Below, piece after piece: positions 1 through 57,607 of a DNA stretch of 64,000 nt. A model generated the notes under the pieces. The model ran no database searches. It saw only the letters and a list, made by a program, of their open reading frames with translations, and was not told the DNA's origin. Position 1 is the stretch's first letter; each line of letters starts with the position of its first letter. The position numbers and the translations under genes were made by a program. The stretch covers positions 1,440,001 to 1,504,000 of the forward strand of contig NZ_JAQNDL010000001.1 in the NCBI RefSeq assembly GCF_028368995.1. The letters run 5' to 3'. Source of the DNA: Nannocystis bainbridge. Its GTDB lineage: Bacteria; Myxococcota_A; Polyangia; Nannocystales; Nannocystaceae.

Positions 1-570
1 CCACCCCGGCAGCGGCGCCATGCAGCGCAGGTCGTCGGCCCCCGCCGGCTTGGGGATCACCAGCGGGTCGAGCGGCGCCCCCATGCCCAGCTCGCAGCTC
101 GGCAGGCAGCCGTCGTCGAGGTCGGCGTTGGCCCCGTCGTCGCACGCCTCGCCCGGCTGGACCACGCCGTCGCCGCAACCCGGCGGCCCGCCCGTGCTGC
201 TCGTGTCCGGCCCGGTGCTCGTCGTCGTCGTCTCTTCGCCAGTGCTCGTCGAGGTGTCCGGCCCGGTGCTCGTCGAGGTCGTCGCTTCGCCGGTGCTCGT
301 CGAAGTCGTCGCCTCACCGGTGCTCGTCGAAGTCTCGGTCGCGCTCACGCCCTCGGTGGTCGTGCTCTCGCCCGTGCTCGTGCCGGTGGTAGTCGTGGAT
401 GTCGGATCGCCGGTGGTCGGCGGATCGTCGCTCGTGGTCGTCGCCGTCTCGCTGCCGCTCGCGGTCGCGGCCCCGGTGTCCGTCTCTGTGTCCCCGGGGA
501 CAGGTTGTGAAGGACAGGCCGTCAGCAGCCCGCAGACCATGAGCGCGGTCGAACGATCGACAATCGACAT
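1..570 (-). CDS. Thr-rich lipoprotein with myxobacterial Cys-rich repeat (partial, runs off the window start)
   Basis: Not in the ORF track; translated by hand from ATG at 570: MSIVDRSTALMVCGLLTAC (lipobox), Thr/Ser-rich linker, then CGDGVVQPGEACDDGANADLDDGCLPSC (Myxococcus Cys-rich/DUF4215-type repeat). Confidence 0.8.
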   Translation of the reverse strand, partial: MSIVDRSTALMVCGLLTACPSQPVPGDTETDTGAATASGSETATTTSDDPPTTGDPTSTTTTGTSTGESTTTEGVSATETSTSTGEATTSTSTGEATTSTSTGPDTSTSTGEETTTTSTGPDTSSTGGPPGCGDGVVQPGEACDDGANADLDDGCLPSCELGMGAPLDPLVIPKPAGADDLRCMAPLPGW

Positions 571-910
571 TGGCGAAATCTACGCGCGGGCCGCAGCGCC
601 GGCAAGCCGCGCGCCGCGGTCGGTCCGGCGCCTCCACCGCGATCCGCACGCGAATCGACGAATGCGCGTACCTCCGACGCTCATCCTCCGCCCACGACGA
701 ATGCGCGGGGCGTCGCTACGATTCGCCCGATCTGTCGCGCCGGAGCGCGCACGCCCCGTGAGTTCGCCGGACGGATCGCGCCCCCGTGCGCCGCGTGAAT
801 CAGCGACGGAGGCGGGCCCGCCATGACCTTGACCGTCGAGCCTGCTGCGGCGACGGTCGAGCCCGCCGCGCGGCTCGCTCGGTTGCGCATCGCCGGAACT
901 CGCGCATGCC

Positions 911-1498
911 ATGGGCGGGAGAAAATCGCTGATGGGTTCCACATCGCTGAAGGGCAAGAAGATCGCGATCCTCGTCGTCTCGGGGTTCGAGCAGAGCGAG
1001 CTGGTCAAGCCGCGCGAGGCGCTCGATGCCGCCGGCGCCGAGACGGTGCTCGTCTCATCCGAGTCCGGCAAGGTGCGCGGCTGGAAGGGCGGCGACTGGG
1101 GCGACTCGTTCCCGGTCGACCTCGCGCTGAGCGACGCGCGCGCGGTCGATTACGACGCCCTGCTGCTGCCCGGCGGCGTCATCAACCCTGACAAGCTGCG
1201 CATCGACGAGGACGCGATCAAGTTCATCCGTCACTTCGTCGCCAGCGACAAGCCGGTCGCCGCCATCTGCCACGGGCCGTGGCCGCTGATCGAGTCGGGC
1301 GGGGTCCGCGGGCGCAAGCTGACCTCGTGGCCGTCGCTGCGCAGCGACCTGCAGAACGCCGGCGCCTCATGGGTCGACGAGGAGGTCGTGCTCGACCGCA
1401 ACCTCGTCACCAGCCGCAAGCCCGACGACATCCCCGCGTTCGTGAAGACGATGATCGAGGCGATCGCCGCCGAGAAGGCGACCACCCACGCCGCCTGA
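911..1498 (+). CDS. PfpI/DJ-1 family type 1 glutamine amidotransferase-like protein
   Basis: GFEQSEL, YDALLLPGG, AAICHGPW (catalytic Cys-His), LVTSRKPDD motifs; start may be 931. Confidence 0.93.
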   Translation: MGGRKSLMGSTSLKGKKIAILVVSGFEQSELVKPREALDAAGAETVLVSSESGKVRGWKGGDWGDSFPVDLALSDARAVDYDALLLPGGVINPDKLRIDEDAIKFIRHFVASDKPVAAICHGPWPLIESGGVRGRKLTSWPSLRSDLQNAGASWVDEEVVLDRNLVTSRKPDDIPAFVKTMIEAIAAEKATTHAA

Positions 1499-1503
1499 GC
1501 CGC

Positions 1504-3159
1504 TCACGGATAGGCGGCGCGCACGACGATGCCGCTCGGCCCGCGCAGGAAGCTGCGGCCGAGCGCGTCGACGCGGATCTGCAGGCCCTCGTCGAGGTTG
1601 ACGTCGGTCTCGCCCTCGCCGACCAGCTCGCCCAGCGGCGTGTACGCGAAATGCTGGACGACGCGGTTCGGCTGCGGGGTGATCCAGTTGTAGACCTCGC
1701 CGAGCACGAAGTCCTCGCCGCGCACCGGGATCTCCTGGTGCCGGCGGCGGAACGAATCATAGCAGTGGCCGCCGTCCCAGCCCTCGAAATCCATCGTGGT
1801 GCGCTGGACGTCGGCCACCGACGTGCCATCGGCGGCGAAGAACCGCATGTCGAGCGCGGTGCCGTCCGAGCGCCACAGGAACACGAACTCGCTCTCGTCG
1901 TTCATGCCGACGGTGAAGCCGTCGTACCAGTAGTGATAGTTGACGGACAGCTGCACCGGGCCCGCATCGATCCACCCGGCGCCGCCGGCCTTGAAGCGGC
2001 GGTAGTAGATGCCGTTGCCGCTGTGCTTCTGCGCGGCGACGATGCCCTCGCCGGTGGCCTGGTTGAGCGCGACGTGGTTGCCGTAGACGGCGTCGATGTC
2101 GAACGCCTCCTGCTGCGCCCCCGCCAGCCCGTCGGCGTCGACGAAGGTGATCAGCGTCTGGTTCGGCGACACCGTGATCACGCTGTTGCCGGCGGCGTCG
2201 ATCGCCGCGTTGTGGAACTCGAAGTATGCGTCCGGCAGCGCGATCGCCGTCTCGGCGGTGACGACCGGCTGGCACGTGTTGTCCAGCAGCGAATAGGCGA
2301 TGCGGTGGCTCGCCGGGTCGCCGCCGGCGTCGAACCACGTGACGAGGACCTTCTGCGCCTCGCGGGCGATGTGGATCTCCGGCTTCGCCCCCAGCCCCTG
2401 ACCGGCGTCGTAGCTGCCGGCCACGAACTCCGGCCGCCGCACCGTGCCGTCGCCGTTCCAGCAGGTCACCTTGAGCGAGCCCGCGTCGCCGCGCACGACC
2501 ACCAGCGCGCCGTCGGCCGCCACGTCGTAGTCGTCGATCGGCGTGTCGATGACGAGCGCGACCTCGTCGTCGCAGGCGTCGGGGATCCCGTCCTCGTCGA
2601 CGTCGACGTCGTCGGGCCCGGCGAGACAGAGGTCGTCGCCGTCGCACACGCCGTCCATGTCGCTGTCGTTGCTGGCGTCCTGAGGGCACGCATCACAGGC
2701 GTCGGCGATCCCGTCGCCGTCGCCGTCGAGCCCGTCGTCGCCGCCCTCGCACACGTCGCAGGCGTCCGGGACGCCGTCGCCGTCGCCATCGGGCCCGCCC
2801 TCGCACGGGTCGCCGGTGGTGCTGGTGTCGGTGGTGATCGCGTCGGTGGTGCTCGAGTCCGCGGTCGTGCTGGTATCGACCGCCGTCGTCTCGCCAGTGG
2901 TCGTCGTCGTGTCGCCGGTCGTCGTCGTCGTGTCACCGGTCGTCGTCGTCGTCCCCGACTCGCTGTCGCTCATGGCGCTGGTGGTCGGTGCCGCGGTGGT
3001 CGGCGCGTCGGTGGTCGGCCCGCCGGTGCTCGGATCGTCGGTCGTGCCCGTGCCGGTGTCGCTCGTCGCGGCCGACTCGGTGGTCGCGATGGTGTCGTCG
3101 CCGCAGGCGACGCAGGGCAGGAGCACGGACAGGAACAGCGAACAGCGGCCACGCATCAT
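1504..3159 (-). CDS. Lipoprotein with Thr-rich linker, thrombospondin type-3-like Ca-binding repeats and a beta-rich C-terminal domain
   Basis: Lipobox CVAC-GDD; DGDGDGVPDACDVC-type repeats x4. Confidence 0.8.
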   Translation of the reverse strand: MMRGRCSLFLSVLLPCVACGDDTIATTESAATSDTGTGTTDDPSTGGPTTDAPTTAAPTTSAMSDSESGTTTTTGDTTTTTGDTTTTTGETTAVDTSTTADSSTTDAITTDTSTTGDPCEGGPDGDGDGVPDACDVCEGGDDGLDGDGDGIADACDACPQDASNDSDMDGVCDGDDLCLAGPDDVDVDEDGIPDACDDEVALVIDTPIDDYDVAADGALVVVRGDAGSLKVTCWNGDGTVRRPEFVAGSYDAGQGLGAKPEIHIAREAQKVLVTWFDAGGDPASHRIAYSLLDNTCQPVVTAETAIALPDAYFEFHNAAIDAAGNSVITVSPNQTLITFVDADGLAGAQQEAFDIDAVYGNHVALNQATGEGIVAAQKHSGNGIYYRRFKAGGAGWIDAGPVQLSVNYHYWYDGFTVGMNDESEFVFLWRSDGTALDMRFFAADGTSVADVQRTTMDFEGWDGGHCYDSFRRRHQEIPVRGEDFVLGEVYNWITPQPNRVVQHFAYTPLGELVGEGETDVNLDEGLQIRVDALGRSFLRGPSGIVVRAAYP

Positions 3160-5947: not shown

Positions 5948-5988
5948 GCGATCGTCACCGACCGCCGCGAGCGGCGGTCGCGGCGACC

Positions 5989-6058
5989 GGTGCTTCAGGA
6001 CATGTCTCCGAAGACATTTCCGAAAGCACAGGCTCTCAGGGACATGCTCCAAAGGACC
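5989..6058. repeat. Array of five phased 14-bp TGTCC-N4-GGACA-like units
   Basis: ggtgcttcaggaca|tgtctccgaagaca|tttccgaaagcaca|ggctctcagggaca|tgctccaaaggacc between convergent genes. Confidence 0.8.
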
Positions 6059-6754: not shown

Positions 6755-7040
6755 GAACCCGAGCTTGGGACGTGCCCCGCCCGCCGGCGGGCGATCGACG
6801 ATTCGCCGCCGACAGTCGCAGCGCGCGGCGACGCCTGCGAGGCCACCGCGACGGTGCGGACGGGGCGCCCCGGCCCGCGCGCAGCGACGCGCACGGCCAC
6901 GCGCGGGGGCGCTCAGCCTGACCCGGGGTCGGCGGCCCGGATGGCCCCCATGACATGTCCGCAGAGACATTCTCCGCAGCGTGCGCGCGCCGGCGCGCGG
7001 CCTGGTTGCACGCACGTCGCCGCTGATCGATCGTGGGCCC

Positions 7041-8723
7041 GTGCCGGTCCGCGTCCGTCCCTCGCTCGTCCTCGTGCTCCTGTGCGCCTGCCCGTCCGCG
7101 GCCGGCACCACCACCGAGGACACCGTCGCCTCGACCGGCAGCGGCGGCGCGGCCACGGGCGAGCCGACTTCGACCGGCCCTGACGCGCCGACCACCGCGG
7201 GCGGCTGCCCCGCGCCGCTCGCCGAGTGCGACGGGGCCTGCGTCGACGTCGCCCACGACCCGGCGCATTGCGGCGGCTGCGACAGCCCGTGCGACGCCGG
7301 CCTCGCCTGTCTCGAAGGCCAGTGCGGCGTCGCCTGCGGCCCCGGCACCGCCACCTGCGACGGCGCCTGCGTCGACCTCGAGGTCGACCCCAGTCACTGC
7401 GGCGCCTGCGACCGCGCCTGCGACCCCGGCGTCGCCTGCGTCGCCGCGACCTGCGTGCCCGGCTGCGCCCCCGAACAGGCGCTGTGCGGCGAGGCCTGCG
7501 TCGACCCCGGCAACGACGAGGCCCACTGCGGCGGCTGCGATACCGCCTGTCCTTCGGGACAGCCCTGCGTCTACGGCCAGTGCGTCGGCGTCGGCCTGCA
7601 CCACCTCCTCATCAGCGGACAGAGCCTCTCGACCGGCTCGGGCTCCGTCGTCGTCAGCGTCGAGCAGCCGTTCGCCAACGTCTCGTTCAACACCGGCGTG
7701 CGGGCCGGCGGCGTGGGCCTCACGGGCTTCATCCCGCTGATCGAGACCTGGAACGGCGGCGAGGGCGAGACCATCGCCTCGGGCGCCGCCAACCTCGTCA
7801 GCCAGCTCGAGCAGGACCGCGGCGGCAGCCACAAGATCCTCGCCTCGGCCCACGGCGTCGGCGGCCAGCCCTACGGCGCGCTCAAGAAGGGCACCGCGCC
7901 CTACGCCAACGGCGTCGCCCAGGTCACCGCCGGCGTCGCCCTCGCGGCCATGGCCGGCGAGGCCTATGCCGTGCGCGCCGTCGCCATCGTCCACGGCGAG
8001 AGCGACCACCTCGGCGGCAACCTGGCCTACGCCGAGGATCTGCTGGCCTGGCAGAGCGACTACGAGGCCGACGTGAAGGCCATCACCGCCCAGCCCTACC
8101 CCGTGCCGATGTTCCTGTGCCAGATGTCGAGCTGGACCATGTACGGCAGCAGCGTCTCGCGGATCCCCGGCGAGCAGCTGGCGGCCGCGCGGGCCCGGCC
8201 CGACCGGATCTTCGTCGTCGGCCCCAAGTACATGCTGCCCTACGTCGACGGCGTGCACCTCACCGGCGAGGGCTCGCGCTGGCTCGGCGAGTACTACGCC
8301 AAGGCCTACCGCCGGGTCCTCGTCGAGGGCCTGCCGTGGCGACCGCTGGCGCCGCGCAGCATCACCCGCGAGGGCGCCGTCGTCACCGTCGAGTTCGAGG
8401 TCCTGACCCCGCCGCTGGTGCTCGACGAGCTGCTCGTCAGCAACCCCGGCAACTACGGCTTCGAGTTCACCGACAGCAGCGGCGCCCCGCCGGCGATCGC
8501 CGCGGTCGCGCTCGCGGGCCCCACCACCGTCCAGCTGACCCTCGCGGCCGAGCCCGTCGGCGGCAACCAGCGGGTCCGCTACGCCGCCACCGGCGTGCCC
8601 GGCGTCAGCGCCGGCCCGACCACCGGCGCCCGCGGCAACCTGCGCGACTCCGATGCGACCGTCAGCCGCCACGGCTACAGCCTCTTCAACTGGGCCGTCC
8701 ACTTCGACGAGCCGGTCCAGTGA
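7041..8723 (+). CDS. Lipoprotein with Cys-rich (Stig1/MXAN_6577-like) repeats and an SGNH sialate O-acetylesterase-like (SASA) domain
   Basis: Lipobox LLCAC; three CVDxxxDPxHCGxC repeats; GQS, HGESD, DGVH SGNH/SASA blocks; start approximate. Confidence 0.82.
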   Translation: MPVRVRPSLVLVLLCACPSAAGTTTEDTVASTGSGGAATGEPTSTGPDAPTTAGGCPAPLAECDGACVDVAHDPAHCGGCDSPCDAGLACLEGQCGVACGPGTATCDGACVDLEVDPSHCGACDRACDPGVACVAATCVPGCAPEQALCGEACVDPGNDEAHCGGCDTACPSGQPCVYGQCVGVGLHHLLISGQSLSTGSGSVVVSVEQPFANVSFNTGVRAGGVGLTGFIPLIETWNGGEGETIASGAANLVSQLEQDRGGSHKILASAHGVGGQPYGALKKGTAPYANGVAQVTAGVALAAMAGEAYAVRAVAIVHGESDHLGGNLAYAEDLLAWQSDYEADVKAITAQPYPVPMFLCQMSSWTMYGSSVSRIPGEQLAAARARPDRIFVVGPKYMLPYVDGVHLTGEGSRWLGEYYAKAYRRVLVEGLPWRPLAPRSITREGAVVTVEFEVLTPPLVLDELLVSNPGNYGFEFTDSSGAPPAIAAVALAGPTTVQLTLAAEPVGGNQRVRYAATGVPGVSAGPTTGARGNLRDSDATVSRHGYSLFNWAVHFDEPVQ

Positions 8724-11128: not shown

Positions 11129-11164
11129 TGTCCCGAAGGACAGAATCACATGTCCTCCAGGACA
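11129..11164. repeat. Two perfect TGTCC-N4-GGACA palindromes
   Basis: TGTCCCGAAGGACA (11129) and TGTCCTCCAGGACA (11151) between convergent genes. Confidence 0.85.
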
Positions 11165-16144: not shown

Positions 16145-18115
16145 ATGACTCGACCGCTCGCCCCGCCGGAGGCCGAACTCGTCGCCGAGGAGCGCCGCGT
16201 CTTGCGGGACCTCGCCGCTGCGCTGCCCGGGGCCCGCTATTTCGGCCGCCTGCGCGTGCGCACCGCGGCTGGCGAGCGCGACGTCTTGCTCGCCGATCGC
16301 GCCTTCGTCGGTCACGACCTCGCGCTCGTCGACTGGCGCACCGCCCCGCTCGCCGAGGTCTTCTTCACCTGCGACGTCGGCGACGACTACGAGCTGGAGC
16401 GCGACGATCGCCCCCTGCGCGGCGTCGTCGTTCGCCGTCACCTCGTCCACCTCCGCGCCGGCGAGCTCGTCGGCCTCGACCTCGCCGATCGCCGCCTCCG
16501 TCGTCAATCACACGACCTCTGGCTCGCCGACGAGCGGCCCGGCCCGCGTATCGCCCCGCGCCCGCCCGCCCAGCGCAGCCGCCCGCTGTCGCCCGCGCGC
16601 GTCGAGCTCGATCCGCACCAGCGCGCCGCCGTCGAACTCGCCGCCGAGCGCTCGCTGCTCGTCCTCGGCGAGGCCGGCTTCGGCAAGACCACCGTCGCCC
16701 TGCACCGCCTCGCCTTCCTCGCCCGCGCCGCCCACGACGCCCGCCGTCCGTTTCGCGCCCTCATGCTCGTGCCCACCCCCGGCCTGCAGCGCCTGGCCGT
16801 CCGCATGCTCGCCGACCTCGGCGTCGCGCGCGTCCACGTCGACACCTTCGAGCGATGGGTCACCGCCCAGGCCCGGCGCCTGTTCCCCCAATTGCCGCGC
16901 CGCCTCAGCGAGGCCGCCGGTCCCGGCGTGCGCACCTTCAAGCGCCACCCCGCCTTGCGCACCGTCCTGCCGCAGATCGTCGTTGGCACTGCCGCCATGC
17001 GCGACCTCGCGTCCGGCTACCGCGAGCACGCCGTCAGCCTGCGCGACCTCCTGTTGCACCTCTACGGCGACCGCCAACTGCTGGCCGACGTCGCCGCCCA
17101 GGCTCCGGACGAGCTCGGCCCCGCGGTCCTGCAGGACGTGCTCGCCCACACCAAGATCCAGTTCAGCGCCACCACCGAGCGGGCCATGGCCCACGTCGAC
17201 GGCGAGCGGCTGCAAACCCTCGACGGCCGCCCGATCGACGCCGGCACCCCGCTCGCCGACGCCGACACCCTCGACGTCGAGGACTTCGCGGTCCTGTTCG
17301 CCTTGCATCGCCGGATCACCGGCGGCGACCGCACCCCGCACGGCGCCCTCTCGCATTATCAACACATCCTGCTCGACGAGGCCCAGGAGCTGGCCCCCAT
17401 CGAGCTCGAGCTGCTCGCCCGCGCCGTCGCGCCCGACGGCACCGTCACCGTCGCTGGCGACGAGCGACAGCAAGTCGACGCCTCGACCGCCTTCCCCGGC
17501 TGGCCCGCCGTGCTCGCCGAGCTCGGGCGCAGCGAGGCCACCACCGCCGCGCTCACTGTCAGCTACCGCTGCCCGCCGCCCATCGAGGACGTCGCCCGCG
17601 CCGTGCTCGACCCTGGCCAGCGGCCCCGCGACGTCGCCCACCGCGACCACCTGCTCGTCACCCGCCACGACAGCCCCTGCCACCTCGTCGCCGACCTCAC
17701 CGACGCCTTGCTCGCGCTGACGCGCGCCGACCCGCACGTCCACGTCGCCGTCGTCTGCCGCCACGTCGAGACCGCCGCGGCCCTGCACGCCGACCTCGCG
17801 CGCGCGCTGCCGGCCCGCCTGGTCGTCGAGGACGGCGAATTCCGGTTCGCCCCCGGCATCGAGGTCACCACCGTCCAGGACGTCAAGGGCCTCGAGTTCG
17901 ACCTCGTGATCGTCCCCGACCTCGACGGCGCCACCTACCCCGATCGTGCTGACGCCCGCCGCGCCCTCTACGTCGCCGCCACCCGCCCGCTGCACCGCCT
18001 GTGGCTGGCCAGCCCCGGCCCGTGGTCGCCGCTGCTCCCGACCTGGCTCCTGGACCATGTCCGCGAGGACATCCCGAACGAGCCCACCCGCGTGCCCCAA
18101 CCACAGGTCTCATGA
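16145..18115 (+). CDS. UvrD/HelD-like SF1 helicase/ATPase
   Basis: Walker A GEAGFGKT, ILLDEAQE, AGDERQQ, LTVSYR, VKGLEFD, LYVAATR; N-terminal YFGRL and VDWRTAPLA as in HelD-like proteins. Confidence 0.9.
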   Translation: MTRPLAPPEAELVAEERRVLRDLAAALPGARYFGRLRVRTAAGERDVLLADRAFVGHDLALVDWRTAPLAEVFFTCDVGDDYELERDDRPLRGVVVRRHLVHLRAGELVGLDLADRRLRRQSHDLWLADERPGPRIAPRPPAQRSRPLSPARVELDPHQRAAVELAAERSLLVLGEAGFGKTTVALHRLAFLARAAHDARRPFRALMLVPTPGLQRLAVRMLADLGVARVHVDTFERWVTAQARRLFPQLPRRLSEAAGPGVRTFKRHPALRTVLPQIVVGTAAMRDLASGYREHAVSLRDLLLHLYGDRQLLADVAAQAPDELGPAVLQDVLAHTKIQFSATTERAMAHVDGERLQTLDGRPIDAGTPLADADTLDVEDFAVLFALHRRITGGDRTPHGALSHYQHILLDEAQELAPIELELLARAVAPDGTVTVAGDERQQVDASTAFPGWPAVLAELGRSEATTAALTVSYRCPPPIEDVARAVLDPGQRPRDVAHRDHLLVTRHDSPCHLVADLTDALLALTRADPHVHVAVVCRHVETAAALHADLARALPARLVVEDGEFRFAPGIEVTTVQDVKGLEFDLVIVPDLDGATYPDRADARRALYVAATRPLHRLWLASPGPWSPLLPTWLLDHVREDIPNEPTRVPQPQVS

Positions 18116-18460
18116 GACATGTCCGTTCGGACATGGCGAGCGCAGCCCGCTCGCGCTTCGAACATAACTCTTCGTACATGTCCAATGGGTCATGTCAATC
18201 GCCGAGCCGCTCGAGCACGGCGCTCCGCACATGTCCGATGGCCATGTCGATCGCCGAACCGCTCGAACACGGCGCTTCGCACATATCCGATGGGCCAATG
18301 TCGATCGCCGCGCCCGCTCGAACACGGCGCTTCGCACATGTCCGATGGGACACGACGATCACCCCACCCGCTCGAACCCGGCGCTTCGCACATGTCGATG
18401 GGCCGCGTCGATCACCGCGCGCGCCGCGAACCTGCCGCCTCGCACATGTCCTCGAGGACA
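18106..18460. repeat. Tandem ~53-bp repeat (5-6 degenerate units), each carrying a TGTCC-N4-GGACA-like palindrome
   Basis: Unit approx. TCGATCGCCGAACCGCTCGAACACGGCGCTTCGCACATGTCCGATGGGCCAATG; perfect palindromes at 18120, 18339, 18447. Confidence 0.85.
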
Positions 18461-21070: not shown

Positions 21071-21154
21071 GGGTCGCGTGGACATGCTCCATGGGGCATG
21101 CCCTGTATGACATGTCCATGAGAGCATGTCCCATCGCACACGTCCGAACAGACA
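21071..21154. repeat. Array of six phased 14-bp TGTCC-N4-GGACA-like units
   Basis: gggtcgcgtggaca|tgctccatggggca|tgccctgtatgaca|tgtccatgagagca|tgtcccatcgcaca|cgtccgaacagaca. Confidence 0.8.
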
Positions 21155-23957: not shown

Positions 23958-23999
23958 AGGCTCTTCGGACATGCCCTGACGGACATGTCCTAAAAGACG
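23958..23999. repeat. Three phased 14-bp palindrome-like units
   Basis: aggctcttcggaca|tgccctgacggaca|tgtcctaaaagacg. Confidence 0.7.
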
Positions 24000-28929: not shown

Positions 28930-31881
<2,952 letters not shown>

Positions 31882-32293: not shown

Positions 32294-33274
32294 ATGCTCC
32301 GCCGCCTCGTCGCCCTCCTCGCCGCCTCCGGTCTCGCCTGCGCCGGCGAGGCGGCCAAGTCGGTCGCTCCCGAGGTCGCCGCGCCGCCGCCCGTCGCGCC
32401 GCCCGCACCTGCATCACCTGTCCCCGAGGACAGCCAGCCGCCCGCGCTCGAGAAGACCAGCGTCGCGGTCGACGGTCACAGCATCGCCGTGCACGTCAAG
32501 CGCCCCGCGGCGCCGTGGGGCGCGATCGTCCTGGTCCACGGCCGCACCTGGAGCGCCCTGCCCGACTTCGACCTGCAGGTGCCCGGCGCGCGCGTCTCGT
32601 TGATGGACAACCTCGCCGCCGAGGGCCTGGCGGTCTATGCCGTCGACCTGCGCGGCTACGGGGCCACCGCGCGCGACCCCAGCGGCTACACCGACCCGAT
32701 CCAGGCCGCCGACGATCTCGCCGCCGTCGCTCGCCTCGCGGGCACCGGGCTGCCGACCCGGCCCGCCGTGCTCGGCTGGTCGCTCGGCGCCCGGGTCGCA
32801 GCGCTCGCCGCCGAGCGCCACGACGACGCCATCGGCCCGCTGATCCTCTACGGCTCGCCGTGCCCGCCCAAGACCCCGCCGCCCGCCAAGCCTCCGGCGC
32901 CGCCGGCCAAGACCAGCAACACCGAGGCCGCCGCGCGCTCCGACTTCATCACCCCCGACACGCTCGAGCCCGGGGTCGCCGACGCCTTCGCCGCCGCAGC
33001 CCTGGCCGCCGACCCGGTCAAGGCCGACTGGCGCGACCTCCACGTGTGGGCCGACTTCGCCCGCCTCTCCACGCCGGTGCTGGCGATCCACGGCGACCGC
33101 GACCCGGTCGTCACGCCGGCGTGCCTGCAAGAGCGGCTGGCGCAGGTCCCCGGCGGCGCCCAGATCGAGGTCCTCGCCGGCTACGACCACGCGGCCCACC
33201 TCGAGCGCGCGGCCCCGCAGTTCGTCGCCGCCGTGGTCGGCTTCCTCCGCAAGCACAGCGCCCCGCGCGGCTGA
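32294..33274 (+). CDS. Alpha/beta hydrolase lipoprotein
   Basis: Lipobox GLAC; LVHG, DLRGYG, GWSLG nucleophile elbow, HGDRD, GYDHAAHLE. Confidence 0.9.
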   Translation: MLRRLVALLAASGLACAGEAAKSVAPEVAAPPPVAPPAPASPVPEDSQPPALEKTSVAVDGHSIAVHVKRPAAPWGAIVLVHGRTWSALPDFDLQVPGARVSLMDNLAAEGLAVYAVDLRGYGATARDPSGYTDPIQAADDLAAVARLAGTGLPTRPAVLGWSLGARVAALAAERHDDAIGPLILYGSPCPPKTPPPAKPPAPPAKTSNTEAAARSDFITPDTLEPGVADAFAAAALAADPVKADWRDLHVWADFARLSTPVLAIHGDRDPVVTPACLQERLAQVPGGAQIEVLAGYDHAAHLERAAPQFVAAVVGFLRKHSAPRG

Positions 33275-33291: not shown

Positions 33292-33313
33292 CACATGTCC
33301 TTCAGGACATGTG
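33292..33313. repeat. Extended palindrome containing a perfect TGTCC-N4-GGACA
   Basis: CACATGTCC-TTCA-GGACATGTG. Confidence 0.8.
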
Positions 33314-36462: not shown

Positions 36463-36807
36463 GGCGTTTGTCTCTGCGAACGAGAGATGATGGGCGCTCA
36501 CCGCGGGCCCTGCAGGATTCGACGCGCAGGCGAAGTCATATGTCCCCGAGGACATGTGCGACGATCGAGCCCAGCCTTGGCGGAGGCGTCCGCGGGCGCT
36601 CACCCTGTGCATTCGCGGCGGCATCGCGCGAGCTGCCGTGGTTGTGCCGCCCAAAGATCAGGTGTCCTGCGACCGCGATTCAATTGCCCCGGTGCCCGAT
36701 TTATCGCCGAACCCGGGCAGCGCCTTCTCCGGGACGAACCCGCCGATCCCACAACGCGCACGCAACGGCATGCGACCGCAGACCGCCGCCCCTCGCCCGA
36801 CCCTGCA

Positions 36808-42193: not shown

Positions 42194-42263
42194 TGGCGAT
42201 CGAGACATGTCCTTAAGAACATGTCCGTGGGGACATGCCCTTTCGCGCATGTCCGCTCTCGCC
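42194..42263. repeat. Array of five phased 14-bp palindrome-like units
   Basis: tggcgatcgagaca|tgtccttaagaaca|TGTCCGTGGGGACA|tgccctttcgcgca|tgtccgctctcgcc. Confidence 0.82.
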
Positions 42264-44650: not shown

Positions 44651-44746
44651 TGTCCCGCGGGACATGTCGCATCGGTCATGTCGCTCACGCGGGCCCTCTT
44701 CACCGCTCGTTCGGGACATGTCCGTATCGACATGTCCCGAAGAACA
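44651..44746. repeat. Two clusters of phased 14-bp palindrome-like units
   Basis: TGTCCCGCGGGACA|tgtcgcatcggtca ... gctcgttcgggaca|tgtccgtatcgaca|tgtcccgaagaaca. Confidence 0.8.
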
Positions 44747-45793: not shown

Positions 45794-45842
45794 TGTCCCT
45801 CGGGACAGGTCGCATCGACGTCGGGACATGTCCTTCGAGACA
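45794..45842. repeat. Cluster of 14-bp palindromes
   Basis: TGTCCCTCGGGACA (45794); tcgacgtcgggaca|tgtccttcgagaca. Confidence 0.78.
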
Positions 45843-51227: not shown

Positions 51228-51338
51228 CGGCTTTTCCATCGACCTGTCCCGAGGAACATCCTTGGCATCACGCGGCGACCTTCCCCTGACGGCTCTTCCA
51301 TCGACCTGTCCCGAGGACCACCCTTGGCATCACGCGGC
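51215..51338. repeat. 62-bp tandem duplication spanning stop codon, intergenic region and the start of the next gene
   Basis: GACCTTCCCCTGACGGCT(T/C)TTCCATCGACCTGTCCCGAGGA..CCTTGGCATCACGCGGC at 51215 and 51277. Confidence 0.9.
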
Positions 51339-52022: not shown

Positions 52023-52069
52023 GCGCCCGCGGACGCGAAGGCCGTCGATTCGCGGCAGGACGCGAGCAG

Positions 52070-53755: not shown

Positions 53756-53770
53756 AGCGACCCCGCGACG
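53717..53770 (+). repeat. 54-bp direct repeat, copy 1 (3' end of the acyl-CoA dehydrogenase gene)
   Basis: TTCATCGGCAAGCACGCGTGCGGCCTGCCGATGCTGTGAAGCGACCCCGCGACG; 52/54 identical to 57380-57433. Confidence 0.92.
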
Positions 53771-53799
53771 TGCACCCCATTCCCGGCTTCCTGGGTTCC

Positions 53800-54290: not shown

Positions 54291-54379
54291 TGCACGACTG
54301 TTCCCCTCTCGCGCGTGCGCGCATTGGGGAGATAAAGTGTCCCGCGCGCGTTCGATCGCGCCGGATTTCGGGGGAATGC

Positions 54380-57337
54380 ATGATCGTGCGACGCAGGACG
54401 CGAATCGTCGTGGGGGCGGCGCTCGCCGCCGTGACAGCGTGGTTGCTGTGGTCGCGGCCGACGAAGGAGCCTTATCGCGACCGGGCGGCGGCGGGAGCCG
54501 TCCCTGAACCGCGCGTGGTGCTCTCCGCGGATCCTGAGGATACGGGCGACCCGCGGCGGATCGGGTTCGCCACGATCTCCGGGAAGGTCACCGATCCGGA
54601 CGGGCGGGCGATCGCGGGCGCGCAGGTCTGCGCGTTCACCAGCTCGCGCCGGCTCGACGTGGCCGCGTTGCGGCAGCCGACATGCGTGGAGACGGGGCGC
54701 GACGGCGGTTACGTGCTCGCGGGGCTGTGGGCGGTCCGCCACCGCGTCAGCGCGAGCGCGCCGGGCCACATCCCGGCTTTTTACGTGCAGGGTGAGGGGG
54801 CGGCGCGGCGCGATACGATCGACCTGCGCCCGGCCGTCGACGTGCGCGGCATCGACATCGTGCTGCCGGGCGGCGGGGTCGAGATCCGCGGCACGATCAA
54901 GGACCTCAGCGGCGGCGCGATCGAGGGCGCGCTCGTGACGTCCGGTGGGGGTATCGAGGGGACCGGCGTCGCGGCGACGACGTCGGGGCCGGAGGGCGAA
55001 TTCTCGCTGTGGGTGCCGCCGGGTCGACCCAGGGTGCGGGCGACGGCCGAGGGTTACGCCGATGGGCAGGACTACGGGGTCGCGCCCGGGCACACCTTCG
55101 AGGTGTTCTTGACGCCGGAGGCTGTGCTGGTCGGCAAGGTCGTGCGCGCGGGCGACGGTTCGCCGATCGAGGGGGCGGAGGTGACGGCGGAGCGCGGCGA
55201 CGCGTTCGCCGAAGGCGGACGGGCGCGCACCGACGCGGGCGGCAATTTCCGGATCGATCGCCTGGCGGCGGGGGCGTACAAGCCGAAGGCGACGACCGAC
55301 GACGTGTACGGGGTGGCGACGGAGCAGGTCGTGCTCGGGCTCGGCGAGACGTCAGCGCCGATCGTGATTCGGGCGCACCCGGCGTTTTACGTCGAGGGAC
55401 GGGTGTTCGTGGCCGGCGGGACGTCGTGCAATAAGGGATCGGTGAGGCTGCGCGATCCGGCCCAGGGCCGCGAGCACTGGGTGGAGATCGAGGCCGACGG
55501 GGTGGCGCACGCTGACGGGCTCTTGCCGGGGACCTACGAGGTGACTGTCGACTGCCGCGGCTTCGTGTCGGCGGAGCGGTACGAGCCGGTGGTTGTCGCC
55601 GACGCGAACGCGACCGGGCTGCGCTGGGAAGTGACGCGCGGCCAGGCGATCCGCGGCGTCATCGTCACGGCGAAGGGCGAGCCGATGCAGGGCCTCCGGC
55701 TATCGGCACACTCGAAACAAGACCCCGCGCAGCCGCGGGCGCGGACGATTCGCGCGCGAGACAGCCAGTCGGACGCACAGGGGCGCTTCGAGCTCCCGGG
55801 GCTGCTGCCCGGGACTTATCAGGTCTACGCGTCTGCGATAAACCAGAAGCGGGTGACGCCGGACAAGCCGACCGAGGTAACGGTGCCCGAAGGACAGGAC
55901 GTGGAGGGCGTGCGGCTGGTGGCGCCGACGTCCGGCGAGGTCCGCGGCGAGGTCCGCGACGCGCATGGGAAGGGGCTTGCGCGCGTGGGGGTGCAGTTTC
56001 TCGGAGCGCGACCCGGCCCGCAGGTGACCACGGCCGACGACGGCACCTTCGTCGTCCGCGAGATCGCGCCGGGCGAGTACCGGGTCCTCGCTGCCAAGGA
56101 CGATGTGTTGCGGGCACCGGGCGCCGGTCCGGACGACGCGCAGGGGGTGAAGCTCGAGGTCCGCCCCGGGGCGGTGGAGACGGTCAAGCTGGTCGTCGAG
56201 GCAGGTTCGGAGACGATCGTCGGGACGGTCCGCGGCGAGCACGGCGAGGTCGTGCCCGACGCATTCGTCGAGGCGATCCGCGAGTCGGAGGAATGGGGCG
56301 CCGCGGGGCGAGGGGCCGGGCTGCTGACGGGGCGATTCGACCGCGACTCCGAACGGCCGCGCCTGACCGACGGCGACGGCCGGTTTTCGCTCGATGGGCT
56401 GTTCCCGGGCAAGTACACCGTGCGCGCATACCGGCGCGGCGGCGGCGAGGCGATCGCCGAGCAGGTCGCGCCCGGCAGCGAGGTCGTGCTGACGATCGCC
56501 GAGACGGGGCGGCTCGGCGGCACGGTGGCGCTGCCCGGCGGCAGGGCGCCGCAGGAGTTCACTGTCAAGGTGGAGGACATCAGGACCGGGTTCCGCCGGA
56601 TGGACTCGTTCTTCCGCACCGACGGGGCGTGGAGCTTCGCGGAGCTGCCGCCCGGGACCTACCGGGTGCAGGTGTCGGCGTCCGAGGGGACGCGGACGAT
56701 GGATATGTCCCTCGGGCCAGGCGAGGAGAACACCGGGATCCGCGTCGAGCTCGCGGCGAAGGTGACGGTGCGTGGCACGGTAGTCGACCTCGAGGGCAGG
56801 CCGGTGCCGGGTGTCGCCGTGCAGATCCTCGAGAGCACCATCGTCCGCTTCGGCGGAGAACCCGGCGACAAGAAGCACGTCAGCGACGCGGCGGGGCGGT
56901 TCGAGGTCGCGCGGGCGCCGACGGGCCTGGTGATGGTGCAGGCCTCCCCGGAGGAGGCGGAGACGTACGCGTCGGCCTCGATCAACACGCGGCTCGAGGG
57001 CGGGCCGGTGATCGAGCTGCCGCCGATCCGGCTGGTGAAGAAGGCCGTCCGCAGCGGTGAGTCGGGGGGCGACCTCGGGATCGGACTCAAGCAGGCCGAA
57101 CCGGGGGCGGACCCGCTGCAGCGGCGGTTGACCGTCGCGGTGGTGCGCCCGGGCAGCCCGGCGGCCGCGGCCGCGCTGCAGGTCGGCGACGAGATCGTCG
57201 CGGTCGGCGGGCAGGACGTCACCGGCGCGAACTACTACCTGTACTGGCCGCTGACGCTGGTGTCGCCGGGTACGACGGTGCGGCTGGGCCTCGCCCGCGG
57301 GGTGACGGTCGAGCTCGTCGCCGACGCGCCACTCTGA
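54380..57337 (+). CDS. Carboxypeptidase-regulatory-like (prealbumin-fold) repeat protein with C-terminal PDZ domain
   Basis: N-terminal TM; repeated GxVxD..G.PI.GA.V...TD..G.F....L..G.Y; PDZ GDLGI...VRPGSPAAAAALQVGDEIVAVGG. Confidence 0.88.
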   Translation: MIVRRRTRIVVGAALAAVTAWLLWSRPTKEPYRDRAAAGAVPEPRVVLSADPEDTGDPRRIGFATISGKVTDPDGRAIAGAQVCAFTSSRRLDVAALRQPTCVETGRDGGYVLAGLWAVRHRVSASAPGHIPAFYVQGEGAARRDTIDLRPAVDVRGIDIVLPGGGVEIRGTIKDLSGGAIEGALVTSGGGIEGTGVAATTSGPEGEFSLWVPPGRPRVRATAEGYADGQDYGVAPGHTFEVFLTPEAVLVGKVVRAGDGSPIEGAEVTAERGDAFAEGGRARTDAGGNFRIDRLAAGAYKPKATTDDVYGVATEQVVLGLGETSAPIVIRAHPAFYVEGRVFVAGGTSCNKGSVRLRDPAQGREHWVEIEADGVAHADGLLPGTYEVTVDCRGFVSAERYEPVVVADANATGLRWEVTRGQAIRGVIVTAKGEPMQGLRLSAHSKQDPAQPRARTIRARDSQSDAQGRFELPGLLPGTYQVYASAINQKRVTPDKPTEVTVPEGQDVEGVRLVAPTSGEVRGEVRDAHGKGLARVGVQFLGARPGPQVTTADDGTFVVREIAPGEYRVLAAKDDVLRAPGAGPDDAQGVKLEVRPGAVETVKLVVEAGSETIVGTVRGEHGEVVPDAFVEAIRESEEWGAAGRGAGLLTGRFDRDSERPRLTDGDGRFSLDGLFPGKYTVRAYRRGGGEAIAEQVAPGSEVVLTIAETGRLGGTVALPGGRAPQEFTVKVEDIRTGFRRMDSFFRTDGAWSFAELPPGTYRVQVSASEGTRTMDMSLGPGEENTGIRVELAAKVTVRGTVVDLEGRPVPGVAVQILESTIVRFGGEPGDKKHVSDAAGRFEVARAPTGLVMVQASPEEAETYASASINTRLEGGPVIELPPIRLVKKAVRSGESGGDLGIGLKQAEPGADPLQRRLTVAVVRPGSPAAAAALQVGDEIVAVGGQDVTGANYYLYWPLTLVSPGTTVRLGLARGVTVELVADAPL

Positions 57338-57379
57338 TCGCGCCGCATGAAGCGGGGTCGAACGCGCCACGAGATGTCC

Positions 57380-57433
57380 TTCATCGGCAAGCACGTGTGC
57401 GGCCTGCCGATGCTGTGACGCGACCCCGCGACG
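57380..57433 (+). repeat. 54-bp direct repeat, copy 2
   Basis: TTCATCGGCAAGCACGTGTGCGGCCTGCCGATGCTGTGACGCGACCCCGCGACG. Confidence 0.92.
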
Positions 57434-57551
57434 AACGCCCGTCGAGGTCGTCACGCGGCTCCCTGTCCGCCCGGATGCTCACGTCACCTGGACCGCGACG
57501 ACGCGCCGTCCCTGCGCGCCGCCCTGTCGCGCGGGTGTCGCCCGCATCGTG

Positions 57552-57607
57552 AGGCCGCGAGGACATGTCGTCATGAACATGCCTTTTTAGACATGTCCAA
57601 GGAGACA
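57552..57607. repeat. Array of four phased 14-bp palindrome-like units
   Basis: aggccgcgaggaca|tgtcgtcatgaaca|tgcctttttagaca|tgtccaaggagaca. Confidence 0.8.

What the first reader, a model, noticed from the sequence alone, without database searches (positions are those of the whole stretch)
489..57607. Hyper-abundant 14-bp palindrome TGTCC-N4-GGACA forming phased head-to-tail arrays every few kb: candidate undescribed chromosome-wide protein-binding or organising element
Seen: 14 perfect copies counted by eye (489, 7548, 11129, 11151, 18058, 18120, 18339, 18447, 29527, 33296, 36541, 42222, 44651, 45794) plus many 1-3 mismatch copies. A rough chance expectation at about 72% GC (GC estimated by eye) is ~0.05 per 64 kb. 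Units abut with exact 14-bp phase, so junctions read GGACATGTCC, in arrays of 2-6 (5989-6058, 6942-6969, 21071-21154, 23958-23999, 42194-42263, 44651-44746, 57552-57607). The central 4 nt vary freely and flanks are not conserved. Clusters lie between convergent, tandem and divergent genes of unrelated function. Established: REP and MITE copies conserve a longer sequence, whereas matS, parS, SlmA-binding sites, HIP1 and uptake sequences are short over-represented motifs. Inference: conserved half-sites, a free spacer and a strict phase fit an oligomerising dimeric DNA-binding protein (nucleoid, segregation or occlusion factor), not a regulon or a transposon.
Basis: partly seen in the sequence, partly recalled or inferred. 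Interest (0 to 1): 0.85.

Follow-up and report, generated by a model that had tools for sequence, protein, structure and literature searches.

The report
Phased 14-bp palindrome arrays in Nannocystis
A 14-base palindrome occurs thousands of times in this soil myxobacterium, often in exact head-to-tail rows just behind genes, and a few of its letters are kept unchanged between species, so something (most likely a paired DNA-binding protein) reads it, but its job is still unknown.

Summary
TGTCC-N4-GGACA occurs 15 times in the window (shuffles give 0.12) and 1987 times in the 11-Mb genome. An order-3 Markov model expects about 5, and other spacer lengths give 0-16. By my own caller about 9,800 recognisable units (1.25% of the genome) form in-register 14-bp arrays of up to 9 units. 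Of 814 arrays with 3 or more units, 791 adjoin a gene 3' end, often within 8 nt of the stop codon, and 413 of 1326 convergent gaps hold one. By my own gene caller, 41% of perfect copies are solitary sites inside coding sequence. Five same-genus genomes (Nannocystis) hold 1550-2090 copies; two of five sister genera hold 87 and 161. Between species, positions T1, G2, C13 and A14 (and C4/G11) change 4-5 times less than flanks, even at third codon positions. The 4-nt spacer changes fastest. There is no stem covariation, no strand asymmetry of spacers, no U tract, no RAYT and no parent transposon. Best reading, inferred and not shown: a symmetric site read by a dimeric DNA-binding protein, expanded by slippage into arrays at gene ends. 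Rivals are a HIP1-like drive, RNA hairpins and selfish DNA. I found no description of it in print.

The parts
489..502 (.). Solitary perfect unit. It lies in or just upstream of the 5' end of a minus-strand ORF that ends at 540.
5989..6058 (.). 5-unit array (8, 8, 8, 7, 7 of 10 matches) between convergent genes: AHSA1-like 5438-5947 (+) and SIMPL 6104-6736 (-). In three relatives the orthologous 5-unit array lies inside what reads by eye as a small lipoprotein ORF; that ORF is degraded here.
6942..6969 (.). 2-unit array in a divergent gap (6104-6736 minus strand / 7041-8723 plus strand).
7548..7561 (+). Perfect unit inside a Stig1-like cysteine-rich gene, read as C-P-S-G-Q. It is identical in four species.
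11129..11164 (.). Two perfect units 22 nt apart (not in phase), between the convergent histidine kinase gene (stop at 11116) and the 2OG-oxygenase gene (stop at 11184). Relatives carry units at other positions in this gap.
18058..18133 (.). Two perfect units, at 18058 and 18120. They straddle the stop codon of the UvrD-like helicase gene 16145-18115.
18170..18451 (.). Higher-order tandem repeat with a 54-nt period (5.3 copies). Its copies carry units; those with at most one mismatch start at 18179, 18339 and 18447.
21071..21154 (.). 6-unit array that ends about 10 nt from the stop codon of the RCC1-repeat gene 21164-23713 (-).
23958..23999 (.). 3-unit array 24 nt downstream of the stop codon of gene 24023-25771 (-).
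29513..29554 (+). 3-unit array (42 nt, 14 codons) in frame inside a Ser/Thr kinase gene, directly after the DFG motif. It is present at the same place in two relatives.
30943..30970 (+). 2-unit array inside the TPR part of the same kinase gene. It is identical in two relatives.
32419..32432 (+).
33296..33309 (.). Perfect unit 22 nt after the stop codon of the hydrolase gene (33274).
36541..36554 (.). Perfect unit between two minus-strand genes. It lies 79 nt upstream of the start at 36462 and 254 nt downstream of the stop at 36808.
42194..42263 (.). 5-unit array that ends 2 nt from the stop codon of the sulfatase gene 42265-44361 (-).
44651..44746 (.). Two short sub-arrays (44651-44678, perhaps to 44692, and 44705-44746), 12 nt out of phase with each other. 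The second ends 3 nt from the stop codon of gene 44749-45663 (-).
45794..45842 (.). One perfect unit (45794) and one one-mismatch unit (45829) in a divergent gap.
51245..51320 (.). A one-mismatch unit (51245) and a two-mismatch unit (51307) carried by a 62-nt direct duplication (51215-51338), just after the stop codon at 51227.
57552..57607 (.). 4-unit array in the convergent gap between the gene ending at 57337 (+) and the gene ending at 58084 (-).

Best explanation
TGTCC-N4-GGACA is a symmetric recognition site. Its constrained core is T1, G2, C4 and the mirror positions G11, C13, A14. It is most likely read on double-stranded DNA by a dimeric protein, one monomer per half-site.

Solitary sites are scattered through genes and spacers. 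They are held in place by constraint at the nucleotide level.

In Nannocystis the 14-bp site has also expanded, by in-register slippage or unequal exchange, into head-to-tail arrays. In these arrays dimers would sit every 14 bp.

The arrays are kept almost only directly behind stop codons, above all between convergent genes. There a protein-coated array would most plausibly act as a barrier at the end of transcription units, either as a roadblock-type terminator or insulator or as a topological boundary.

Shown here: abundance, spacing specificity, phase, placement, symmetric position-specific constraint, absence of structural covariation, and taxonomic range.
For: **Specificity**
- 1987 copies at N4 against 0-16 at each other spacer length. 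The order-3 Markov expectation is 4.8.

**Symmetric, independent half-sites**
- Watson-Crick pairing between mirror positions equals the product of the column frequencies. For pair 3-12 it is 0.438 observed against 0.456 expected; C-G occurs 239 times against about 234 expected.
- Complementarity is 0.69-0.70 for positions within a unit, between mirror units, between adjacent units and between random units.
- Spacers have no orientation relative to the upstream gene: TTCG 89 against CGAA 82, among 1925 sense-oriented units.
- Position 6 is Y and position 9 is R, independently of each other.

**Position-specific constraint between species**
- G005 against G007, 545 kb aligned, non-coding units: T1/G2/C13/A14 differ at 19 of 648 sites, against 559 of 4201 in the flanks (p = 5e-18).
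- C4/G11 differ at 21 of 324 (p = 2e-4). Positions 3, 5, 10 and 12 differ at 90 of 648 (p = 0.66). The spacer differs at 137 of 648, which is faster than the flanks (p = 5e-7).
- The pattern holds for solitary and for array units. It repeats in G000 against G005 and G000 against G007: TG..CA 4.0-4.8%, flanks 21%, spacer 35-36%.
- Inside coding sequence, third-codon positions that fall on TG..CA differ at 1 of 222, against 274 of 3363 flanking third positions (p = 3.6e-7).

**Phase and array dynamics**
- Distances between units matching 9 or more of 10 bases peak at 14 (485 pairs), 28 (305), 42 (232), 56 (128), 70 (64) and 84 (32).
- One clean 28-nt, two-unit in-register indel separates G005 from G007.

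**Placement**
- 791 of 814 arrays with 3 or more units adjoin a gene 3' end.
- 415 of 1250 array-to-stop distances fall between -3 and +8 nt.
- Arrays of 3 or more units occur in 413 of 1326 convergent gaps, 288 of 3741 tandem gaps and 20 of 1474 divergent gaps.

**Alternatives for terminators**
- Canonical hairpin-plus-U terminators are at chance level in window 40001-60000: 6 found against 4.1 +/- 1.8 in shuffles.

**Age and range**
- Five same-genus genomes hold 1550-2090 copies, with controls of 3-6.
- Two of the five sister genera tested hold 87 and 161 copies, with controls of 10 and 1. In G013 (the only sister genus inspected) all but one of the sampled units stood alone.
Against: - No binding protein was found. 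Of 40 small genes with a perfect unit 5 to 196 nt upstream in a divergent gap, only 4 are transcription-factor-like (MarR, ArsR, two TetR). This is not obviously enriched, and none was tested further.
- No known specific DNA-binding protein has thousands of palindromic sites. This statement rests on recall.
- Reduced divergence at TG..CA could also come from biased repair or another molecular drive, not from selection for binding. These data cannot separate the two.
- Positions 3, 5, 10 and 12 define the consensus, yet they change as fast as the flanks. That fits copies born perfect and then decaying at least as well as it fits pure site selection.
- Sense-oriented units show a modest excess of G-U-type over C-A-type mismatches at pair 3-12 (261 against 179) and pair 4-11 (179 against 129). 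This could reflect RNA pairing, or equally a transcription-linked mutation bias.
- The role proposed for arrays at gene ends rests on position alone. No RNA data exist.
- Gene positions come from my own codon-bias gene caller. It was checked with Pfam on only 16 window genes.
- The species compared are kin, and the three pairwise comparisons share lineages.
Confidence: 0.4

Rival explanations
1. A HIP1-like or uptake-signal-like hyper-abundant palindrome. The motif is created and kept by a molecular drive, not by selection for binding at each site. Candidate drives are a methyltransferase with very-short-patch-type biased repair, or biased DNA uptake and recombination. The arrays are a by-product of slippage, tolerated only in 3' spacers.
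For: - By my own gene caller, 810 of 1987 perfect copies lie inside coding sequence. 721 lie deep inside, and only 162 of those have a recognisable neighbouring unit. Most in-gene copies therefore arose in place, not by insertion.
- Reading frames are used unevenly: 456, 282 and 65. This is what one expects if only tolerable peptides survive.
- Copy number is near constant across five same-genus genomes, at 1550-2090.
- Bins with near-zero GC skew are poor in loci: r = 0.33 to 0.60 between locus count and absolute skew. This would fit a signature of native DNA.
- HIP1 is likewise conserved within and between ORFs (abstract of PMC5861425) and is linked to orphan methyltransferases (abstract start of PMC4390886).
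Against: - Neither HIP1 nor uptake signals are known to form exact-phase arrays. This statement rests on recall.
- A drive does not explain why 97% of multi-unit arrays adjoin gene 3' ends and only 20 of 1474 divergent gaps hold one.
- A repair-type drive should hold all ten specified bases, yet four of them change at the flank rate.
- CATG, the array junction, is not unusual genome-wide: observed/expected is 1.24.
- No methylation or competence data were available.
Confidence: 0.2
2. REP-like 3'-UTR RNA elements. The arrays are transcribed and fold into long imperfect hairpins. These hairpins end or stabilise transcripts in either direction, or stall ribosomes at the stop codon.
For: - Arrays sit directly behind stop codons and between convergent genes.
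- 120 arrays of 5 or more units fold at -6.4 kcal/mol per unit, against -3.8 for shuffled sequence. 80% of the predicted pairs are between units.
- The palindrome gives the same RNA motif on both strands.
- U-tract terminators are not above chance in the window.
- There is a modest excess of G-U-type over C-A-type mismatches on the sense strand.
- E. coli REPs are described as transcribed and mostly extragenic, with a preferential location close to gene ends (passages of PMC12306157).
Against: - There is no covariation in any pairing scheme tested.
- Conservation is highest at the terminal pair T1-A14. It is at flank level at C5-G10 and T3-A12. This is the opposite of what hairpin stability would predict.
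- Spacer orientation is symmetric relative to transcription.
- TTTT occurs within 20 nt downstream in only 12 of 263 arrays.
- Solitary copies inside genes carry the same constraint, including at third codon positions.
- Some whole arrays carry the same unpaired variant in every unit, for example all GG... or all ...ACC.
- Rfam gives no match in the window.
Confidence: 0.15
3. Selfish miniature mobile DNA, of the REPIN, MITE or Rickettsia-palindromic-element type. It spreads by a transposase and is tolerated in 3' spacers and, in frame, in protein linkers.
For: - Copy number is very high and many copies are decayed: 1987 perfect, 4258 with one mismatch, and about 9,800 units in 5446 loci.
- 3' spacers turn over between species and carry different arrays.
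- A 42-nt, 3-unit array sits in frame in a kinase loop.
- The TG...CA ends resemble the usual termini of DDE transposons. This resemblance is recalled, not tested.
Against: - The genome holds no Y1/RAYT transposase: 0 matches, while the positive controls matched in 6 of 14 genomes.
- No multi-copy element with TGTCC... terminal inverted repeats exists. The 29 candidates are array-to-array coincidences or large inverted duplications near contig ends.
- A 14-nt unit cannot insert in frame, yet most in-gene copies are solitary.
- Among 100 units perfect in one species and aligned without gaps, the other species always matches at least 7 of 10 bases. No fresh insertion was seen.
- Position-specific constraint is not expected for junk.
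- Adjacent spacers are almost unrelated: 2.9% identical against 1.6% for random pairs.
Confidence: 0.08

Closest known systems
REP / BIME elements of enterobacteria and pseudomonads (REPIN-RAYT systems)
   Same: Short palindromic repeats in hundreds to thousands of copies. They cluster into arrays and lie preferentially just behind genes. They have been proposed to act on transcript ends or, through gyrase binding, on DNA topology (passages of PMC12306157 and PMC3733652; the gyrase point is recalled).
   Different: - The unit is only 14 nt long, a perfect two-fold palindrome with a free 4-nt spacer.
- It has no GTAG or CGTC tag.
- Units abut head-to-tail in exact phase instead of alternating orientations with linkers.
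- The genome has no RAYT gene.
- By my own gene caller, 41% of perfect copies lie inside coding sequence.
HIP1 (GCGATCGC) of cyanobacteria
   Same: A hyper-abundant short palindrome, found in both genes and spacers. It is conserved within and between ORFs, its function is unknown, and a nucleoid-level role has been proposed (abstract of PMC5861425).
   Different: - HIP1 is an uninterrupted 8-mer linked to known orphan methyltransferases.
- It does not form phased arrays or sit at stop codons (recalled).
- The motif here is interrupted, 5-N4-5, with a strict spacer length.
DNA uptake sequences (Neisseria DUS, Haemophilus USS)
   Same: Roughly one to three thousand copies per genome. Copies lie in genes, in tolerated frames, and as inverted pairs behind genes where they can double as terminators. 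Related taxa share dialects. All of this is recalled.
   Different: - Uptake sequences are asymmetric words and form no phased tandem arrays.
- Competence and an uptake receptor are unknown for Nannocystis, and were not tested.
MetJ metbox arrays and plasmid centromere iterons bound by ribbon-helix-helix dimers (ParR, ParG, omega)
   Same: Short (pseudo)palindromic units repeated head-to-tail in exact register, 2-10 times. Each unit is bound by one dimer that contacts its neighbours. This is recalled, and it is the best-known way such an array works.
   Different: - Those are single loci or small regulons with 7-11-bp units, sited at promoters or centromeres.
- Here there are thousands of loci, 14-bp units, and a position behind stop codons.
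Rickettsia palindromic elements
   Same: Palindromic repeats that also occur in frame inside protein-coding genes (recalled).
   Different: - RPEs are 100-150 nt long and are inserted as whole elements.
- Here most in-gene copies are single 14-nt sites that cannot have been inserted in frame.

Membership tests
REP/BIME (REPIN-RAYT) | An imperfect palindrome of about 20-40 nt with a conserved GTAG or CGTC tag at one end | tested here: not met
   The unit is 14 nt. Flanking positions beyond +/-3 are at background composition, and no tag appears. The feature definition comes from passages of PMC3733652.
REP/BIME (REPIN-RAYT) | A RAYT (Y1 transposase, PF01797) gene in the genome | tested here: not met
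   Zero matches in G000 (90.5% complete). The same search matched in 6 of 14 control genomes.
REP/BIME (REPIN-RAYT) | Extragenic location, mostly near gene 3' ends | tested here: inconclusive
   Met for arrays: 791 of 814 adjoin a 3' end. Not met for single units: 810 of 1987 perfect copies lie inside predicted coding sequence.
MITE | Terminal inverted repeats that match a parent transposon, with target-site duplications | tested here: not met
   No repeated 0.3-6 kb element has TGTCC... ends. Units abut with no room for duplications.
Intrinsic (Rho-independent) terminator | A G+C-rich hairpin maintained by pairing, followed by a U tract | tested here: not met
   No covariation. TTTT occurs within 20 nt downstream in 12 of 263 arrays.
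HIP1-like iterated palindrome | A hyper-abundant palindrome in genes and spacers that is conserved between species | tested here: met
   About 400-fold over the Markov expectation. Conserved in coding and non-coding copies.
HIP1-like iterated palindrome | A cognate (orphan) DNA methyltransferase that recognises the motif or its core | not testable with these tools
   No methylation data were available. CATG is not unusual, with observed/expected 1.24.
DNA uptake sequence | Motif-dependent DNA uptake by a competence receptor | not testable with these tools
   Only abundance and distribution could be compared.
Cooperative operator / iteron array (MetJ, ParR type) | Units in exact register, each a symmetric site for one dimer | tested here: met
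   Unit-to-unit distances fall at 14, 28, 42, 56, 70 and 84 nt. The half-sites are symmetric and independent.
Cooperative operator / iteron array (MetJ, ParR type) | A cognate DNA-binding protein, with placement at a promoter or centromere | tested here: not met
   No protein was identified. Arrays avoid divergent (promoter) gaps: 20 of 1474 hold one.
CRISPR or any known RNA family | A match to a curated RNA family | tested here: not met
   No Rfam match at gathering score in the window.

The most novel reading that the evidence does not exclude
Nannocystis marks the ends of its transcription units in DNA. A sequence-specific dimeric protein polymerises on the phased 14-bp arrays behind stop codons. 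There it blocks or releases RNA polymerase coming from either side, or fixes a supercoiling boundary. This would be a protein-roadblock terminator or insulator used at about a third of convergent gene pairs, comparable in logic to mTERF, Reb1 or TTF-I in eukaryotes and organelles. The solitary in-gene sites would be the older, genome-wide layer of the same protein's binding.
Probability: 0.15. Interest if true: 0.9.

Novelty: new variant of a known kind. Interest (0 to 1): 0.72.

Why it matters
About 1.25% of an 11-Mb genome is built from one 14-bp word, and between species that word shows a clear footprint of constraint. Something important reads it, and nobody has described it.

It combines two puzzles that are usually separate. 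One is hyper-abundant palindromes kept inside genes, as with HIP1. The other is palindrome arrays behind genes, as with REP/BIME. It combines them in a form that is unusually easy to test:
- the spacer length is strict;
- six bases clearly matter;
- the arrays have a defined register;
- cultured strains are available.

Finding the reader protein could reveal a new nucleoid or transcription-end factor in very G+C-rich bacteria that seem to lack ordinary U-tract terminators.

The word is also a practical marker of native Nannocystis DNA. It is also a caveat for gene calling, because the arrays contain no stop codon in their conserved parts.

Tried and rejected
1. **RAYT search.** No Y1 transposase in the genome.
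2. **Parent transposon.** A search for an element with TGTCC... terminal inverted repeats gave only array coincidences and large inverted duplications near contig ends.
3. **Hairpin covariation.** None was found within units, between mirror units or between adjacent units.
4. **Tetraloop preference.** TTCG and CGAA are equally common on the sense strand.
5. **In-frame triplets.** I tested whether in-gene arrays come in multiples of three units. Called sizes inside coding sequence fall off smoothly (1634, 447, 130, 34, 21, 8), and most in-gene copies are solitary. The kinase 3-unit array is a single example, not a rule.
6. **Recent tandem duplication as the source of arrays.** Adjacent spacers are barely more alike than random pairs: 2.9% against 1.6% identical.
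7. **CATG as a methylation target.** CATG has observed/expected 1.24, and arrays hold only a minority of the 39,940 CATG sites.
8. **U-tract terminators.** Absent downstream of arrays.
9. **Autoregulated reader protein.** Pfam on 40 of 92 genes lying within 200 nt of a perfect unit in a divergent gap (the shorter proteins, 83-325 aa) gave 4 transcription-factor-like proteins. None stood out, and none was followed up.
10. **Helical-repeat spacing outside the 14-nt register.** Not seen. Minor peaks at 36, 48, 72 and 108 nt (multiples of three) more likely come from coding tandem repeats; this was not checked.
11. **RNA evidence.** No RNA holder was listed for window 40000-46000.
12. **Earlier notes of this scan.** Nothing on this genome or sequence.
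13. **Literature.** No paper holds the motif written as TGTCCNNNNGGACA or its variants. GGACATGTCC appears in the 15 listed of 47 papers mainly as the p53 half-site or in unrelated eukaryotic work, with no bacterial repeat among the titles. Searches for Nannocystis with palindromic, tandem repeat, or comparative genomics plus repeats gave nothing relevant by title or abstract.
14. **Calls that gave no result.** timed out and was rewritten.

Full report
**1. Observation**

The pattern TGTCC-N4-GGACA occurs 15 times in the window. In 100 dinucleotide-preserving shuffles the mean was 0.12 and the largest 2.

The listed arrays are real and in exact 14-nt register: 5989-6058, 6942-6969, 21071-21154, 23958-23999, 42194-42263 and 57552-57607. 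The exception is 44651-44746, which is two short sub-arrays 12 nt out of phase. Most array units match only 7-9 of the 10 specified bases. Tandem Repeats Finder sees period 14 only at 5997-6061, 29516-29554 and 42204-42237.

**2. Genome-wide specificity**

The window is G000:C1:1440001-1504000, in a genome of 11.05 Mb in 5 contigs at 71-72% G+C.
- The genome holds 1987 perfect copies at N4. Each other spacer from N0 to N11 gives 0-16.
- The array junction GGACATGTCC occurs 956 times.
- An order-3 Markov model expects 4.8 copies at N4, 4.3 at N3, 4.7 at N5 and 17 for the junction.

**3. Anatomy**

I called loci with a simple rule: a seed matching at least 9 of 10 bases, extended in 14-nt steps while units match at least 7 of 10.
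- This gives 5446 loci and 9835 units, or 1.25% of the genome.
- Array sizes 1 to 9 occur 3264, 1140, 495, 163, 209, 130, 33, 10 and 2 times. There is an unexplained bump at 5-6 units.
- Distances between good units peak at 14 (485), 28 (305), 42 (232), 56 (128), 70 (64) and 84 (32) nt.
- In arrays of 3 or more units the most constant columns are G2 (0.97), C13 (0.98), T1 (0.90) and A14 (0.89). T3 (0.61) and A12 (0.64) often read C and G.
- The spacer is variable. Position 6 leans to Y and position 9 to R, independently of each other.
- The central CG is present in only 19% of non-coding perfect units.
- Adjacent spacers are almost unrelated: 2.9% identical against 1.6% for random pairs.

**4. 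Placement**

Gene positions come from my own codon-bias ORF caller, which assigns 83-85% of each contig to coding sequence. I checked it with Pfam on 16 window genes.
- Of 1987 perfect copies, 810 lie in predicted coding sequence and 1177 in the remaining 16% or so of the genome.
- Non-coding perfect copies lie in convergent gaps (452), tandem gaps (620) and divergent gaps (104). The total lengths of those gap types are 276, 938 and 510 kb.
- Of 814 non-coding arrays with 3 or more units, 459 lie between two 3' ends, 332 next to one 3' end and 23 between two 5' ends.
- Counted by gap, arrays of 3 or more units occur in 413 of 1326 convergent, 288 of 3741 tandem and 20 of 1474 divergent gaps. 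At least one unit is present in 713, 939 and 219 of them.
- Arrays hug the stop codon. Of 1250 array-to-stop distances, 415 fall between -3 and +8 nt. In 74 cases the TGA stop codon is itself the first three bases of a unit.
- In the window, the arrays at 21071, 23958, 42194 and 44705 end 2-24 nt from a stop codon.
- No U tract follows: TTTT occurs within 20 nt in 12 of 263 arrays.
- Hairpin-plus-U terminators are at chance level in window 40001-60000: 6 found against 4.1 +/- 1.8 in shuffles.

**5. Copies inside genes**

- 721 perfect copies lie deep inside predicted genes. Only 162 of them have a recognisable neighbouring unit, so most are single sites that cannot have been inserted in frame.
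- Frames are used unevenly: 456, 282 and 65. The rare frame is the one that encodes Cys-Pro.
- Window examples with Pfam support:
  - A 3-unit, 42-nt array sits right after the DFG motif of a Ser/Thr kinase, where the Pkinase match breaks.
  - A unit reads V-P-E-D between an N-terminal signal-like stretch (read by eye) and the Pfam domain of a hydrolase.
  - A unit reads C-P-S-G-Q in a Stig1-like repeat. That one may owe something to the protein motif.
- All three are kept at the same place in two to three relatives.
- The array at 5989 is orthologous to a 5-unit array in three relatives. There it lies inside what reads by eye as a small lipoprotein ORF, which is degraded in this genome.

**6. 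Taxonomic range**

- A perfect two-unit pattern is found in 9 of 10 other genomes of the genus and in 0 of 30 genomes of other genera of the family and class.
- Single-unit counts in five same-genus genomes are 1550-2090, with controls of 3-6.
- Two of five sister genera are moderately rich, at 87 and 161 with controls of 10 and 1. Three are at control level.
- In the one sister genus inspected, G013, all but one of the sampled units stood alone, in genes and in spacers.
- Record titles of relatives of the window's helicase name the genus as Nannocystis.

**7. Evolution between species**

I aligned 545 kb of G005 with G007; coding divergence is 3.9% and non-coding 9.1%. I took units that match at least 9 of 10 bases in either species, which treats all ten positions alike.

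Non-coding units (n = 162):

| Positions | Differences | Rate | p against flanks |
|---|---|---|---|
| T1/G2/C13/A14 | 19 of 648 | 2.9% | 5e-18 |
| C4/G11 | 21 of 324 | 6.5% | 2e-4 |
| 3, 5, 10, 12 | 90 of 648 | 13.9% | 0.66 |
| Spacer | 137 of 648 | 21.1% | 5e-7 (faster) |
| Flanks | 559 of 4201 | 13.3% | - |

- Solitary and array units behave alike.
- Inside genes, third-codon positions that fall on TG..CA differ at 1 of 222, against 274 of 3363 flanking third positions (p = 3.6e-7). Spacer third positions differ at 26 of 141.
- G000 against G005 and against G007 give the same picture: non-coding TG..CA 4.0-4.8%, flanks 21%, spacer 35-36%.
- These comparisons share lineages, so they are not independent replicates.
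- Array length changes in register: one clean 28-nt indel was seen.
- Many 3' spacers are replaced wholesale and carry different arrays in the two species.
- Among 100 units perfect in one species and aligned without gaps, the partner matches 10, 9, 8 or 7 bases in 65, 21, 12 and 2 cases.

**8. Structure hypotheses**

- Pairing between mirror positions equals chance expectation. For pair 3-12, C-G occurs 239 times against about 234 expected.
- Complementarity is 0.69-0.70 whether positions are taken within a unit, between mirror units of an array, between adjacent units or between random units.
- Some arrays carry the same unpaired variant in every unit.
- Spacer orientation is symmetric relative to the upstream gene: TTCG 89, CGAA 82.
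- The only asymmetry is a modest excess of G-U-type over C-A-type mismatches on the sense strand: 261 against 179, and 179 against 129. A transcription-linked mutation bias would give the same.
- As RNA, arrays would fold well, at -6.4 kcal/mol per unit against -3.8 for shuffled sequence, mostly by pairing between units. That follows from the palindrome itself.
- Rfam has no match.

**9. Mobile-element hypotheses**

- No Y1/RAYT transposase is present.
- No repeated element has matching terminal inverted repeats.
- No fresh insertions appear in the species comparison.

**10. Large-scale distribution**

- Loci occur along all contigs at 9-96 per 100 kb, with contig means of 43-62.
- They are more clustered than random: the coefficient of variation of spacing is 1.48.
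- There is no void or gradient at the one GC-skew switch seen, on C3 near 1.5 Mb.
- Locus-poor bins tend to have near-zero skew (r = 0.33-0.60).

**11. Reading**

Four things are shown. The word is extremely specific, strand-symmetric and strict in its spacing. Six of its bases are held at the nucleotide level in genes and spacers alike. Its spacer is free and fast-changing. Arrays grow and shrink in register and are retained almost only behind stop codons.

The simplest reader for a symmetric site with independent half-sites and a non-contacted centre is a dimeric DNA-binding protein, one dimer per 14 bp. That is an inference, and no protein was found. The proposed role of arrays as a barrier at the ends of transcription units rests on position only.

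Three rivals remain open, in falling order: a HIP1-like or uptake-like drive, RNA hairpins, and selfish DNA.

**12. Known relatives and print**

The closest analogues are:
- REP/BIME, for placement and clustering. The tag, size and RAYT tests fail.
- HIP1, for abundance and conservation in ORFs (abstract of PMC5861425).
- Phased operator or iteron arrays, for how an array would be read.

I found no paper holding the motif or describing such a repeat in Nannocystis. For most papers I saw only listings. I read passages of PMC12306157 and PMC3733652 and the abstract of PMC5861425.

**13. Caveats**

- The gene map is home-made.
- The array caller's thresholds are arbitrary, and array edges are fuzzy.
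- No expression, methylation or binding data were available.

Noticed in passing
G000 contig ends: C1 about 4,521,800-4,534,900; C2 about 3,028,300-3,032,100; C5 about 711,200-716,700: Nested, perfectly matching inverted duplications several kb long lie close to the ends of three contigs. They could be fold-back assembly artefacts or real terminal palindromes.
   Followed up: no
window 18170-18451: A 54-nt tandem repeat (5.3 copies, also scored at a 107-nt period) downstream of the helicase gene. Its copies carry 14-bp units, so the word also spreads as part of larger repeats.
   Followed up: partly
window 5948-6103, and L002-L004: Three relatives appear, by eye, to carry a small lipoprotein-like ORF between the AHSA1-like and SIMPL genes. 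I did not translate it. This genome keeps only the array and the last codons, so the gene looks degraded here.
   Followed up: partly
window 47121-47423 and 49390-50278: Very long 9-nt-period repeats (consensus CGGCCCCGC, 34 and 99 copies) inside predicted genes. They suggest collagen-like Gly-X-Y repeat proteins.
   Followed up: no
window 29578-29703: The long insert in the kinase's activation loop contains a 30-nt repeat (4.3 copies, peptide roughly SGLRERL...). Its copy number differs between species.
   Followed up: partly
window 52130-52458: A 36/72-nt tandem repeat (about 9 copies) lies where my gene caller places no gene.
   Followed up: no
relative G007, region orthologous to window 44617-44755: This relative has three further copies of a repeat of roughly 70-75 nt (judged by eye). 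Each contains one unit-like 14-mer (TGTCCTTTCGGCCA type). The copies are absent from G005 and from this genome.
   Followed up: no
genome-wide and G005/G007 alignments: The 4-nt spacer changes faster than neighbouring non-coding DNA, and faster than other third-codon positions (26 of 141 against 274 of 3363). This looks like a local mutation hotspot and is unexplained.
   Followed up: partly
G000 C3 near 1.5 Mb: GC skew changes sign, from about +0.05 to -0.09 between 100-kb bins 14 and 16. This may mark an origin or a terminus. C1, C2 and C5 are negative, and C4 positive, almost throughout.
   Followed up: no
genome-wide: CTAG is strongly under-represented, with observed/expected 0.20 under a second-order Markov model.
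   Followed up: no
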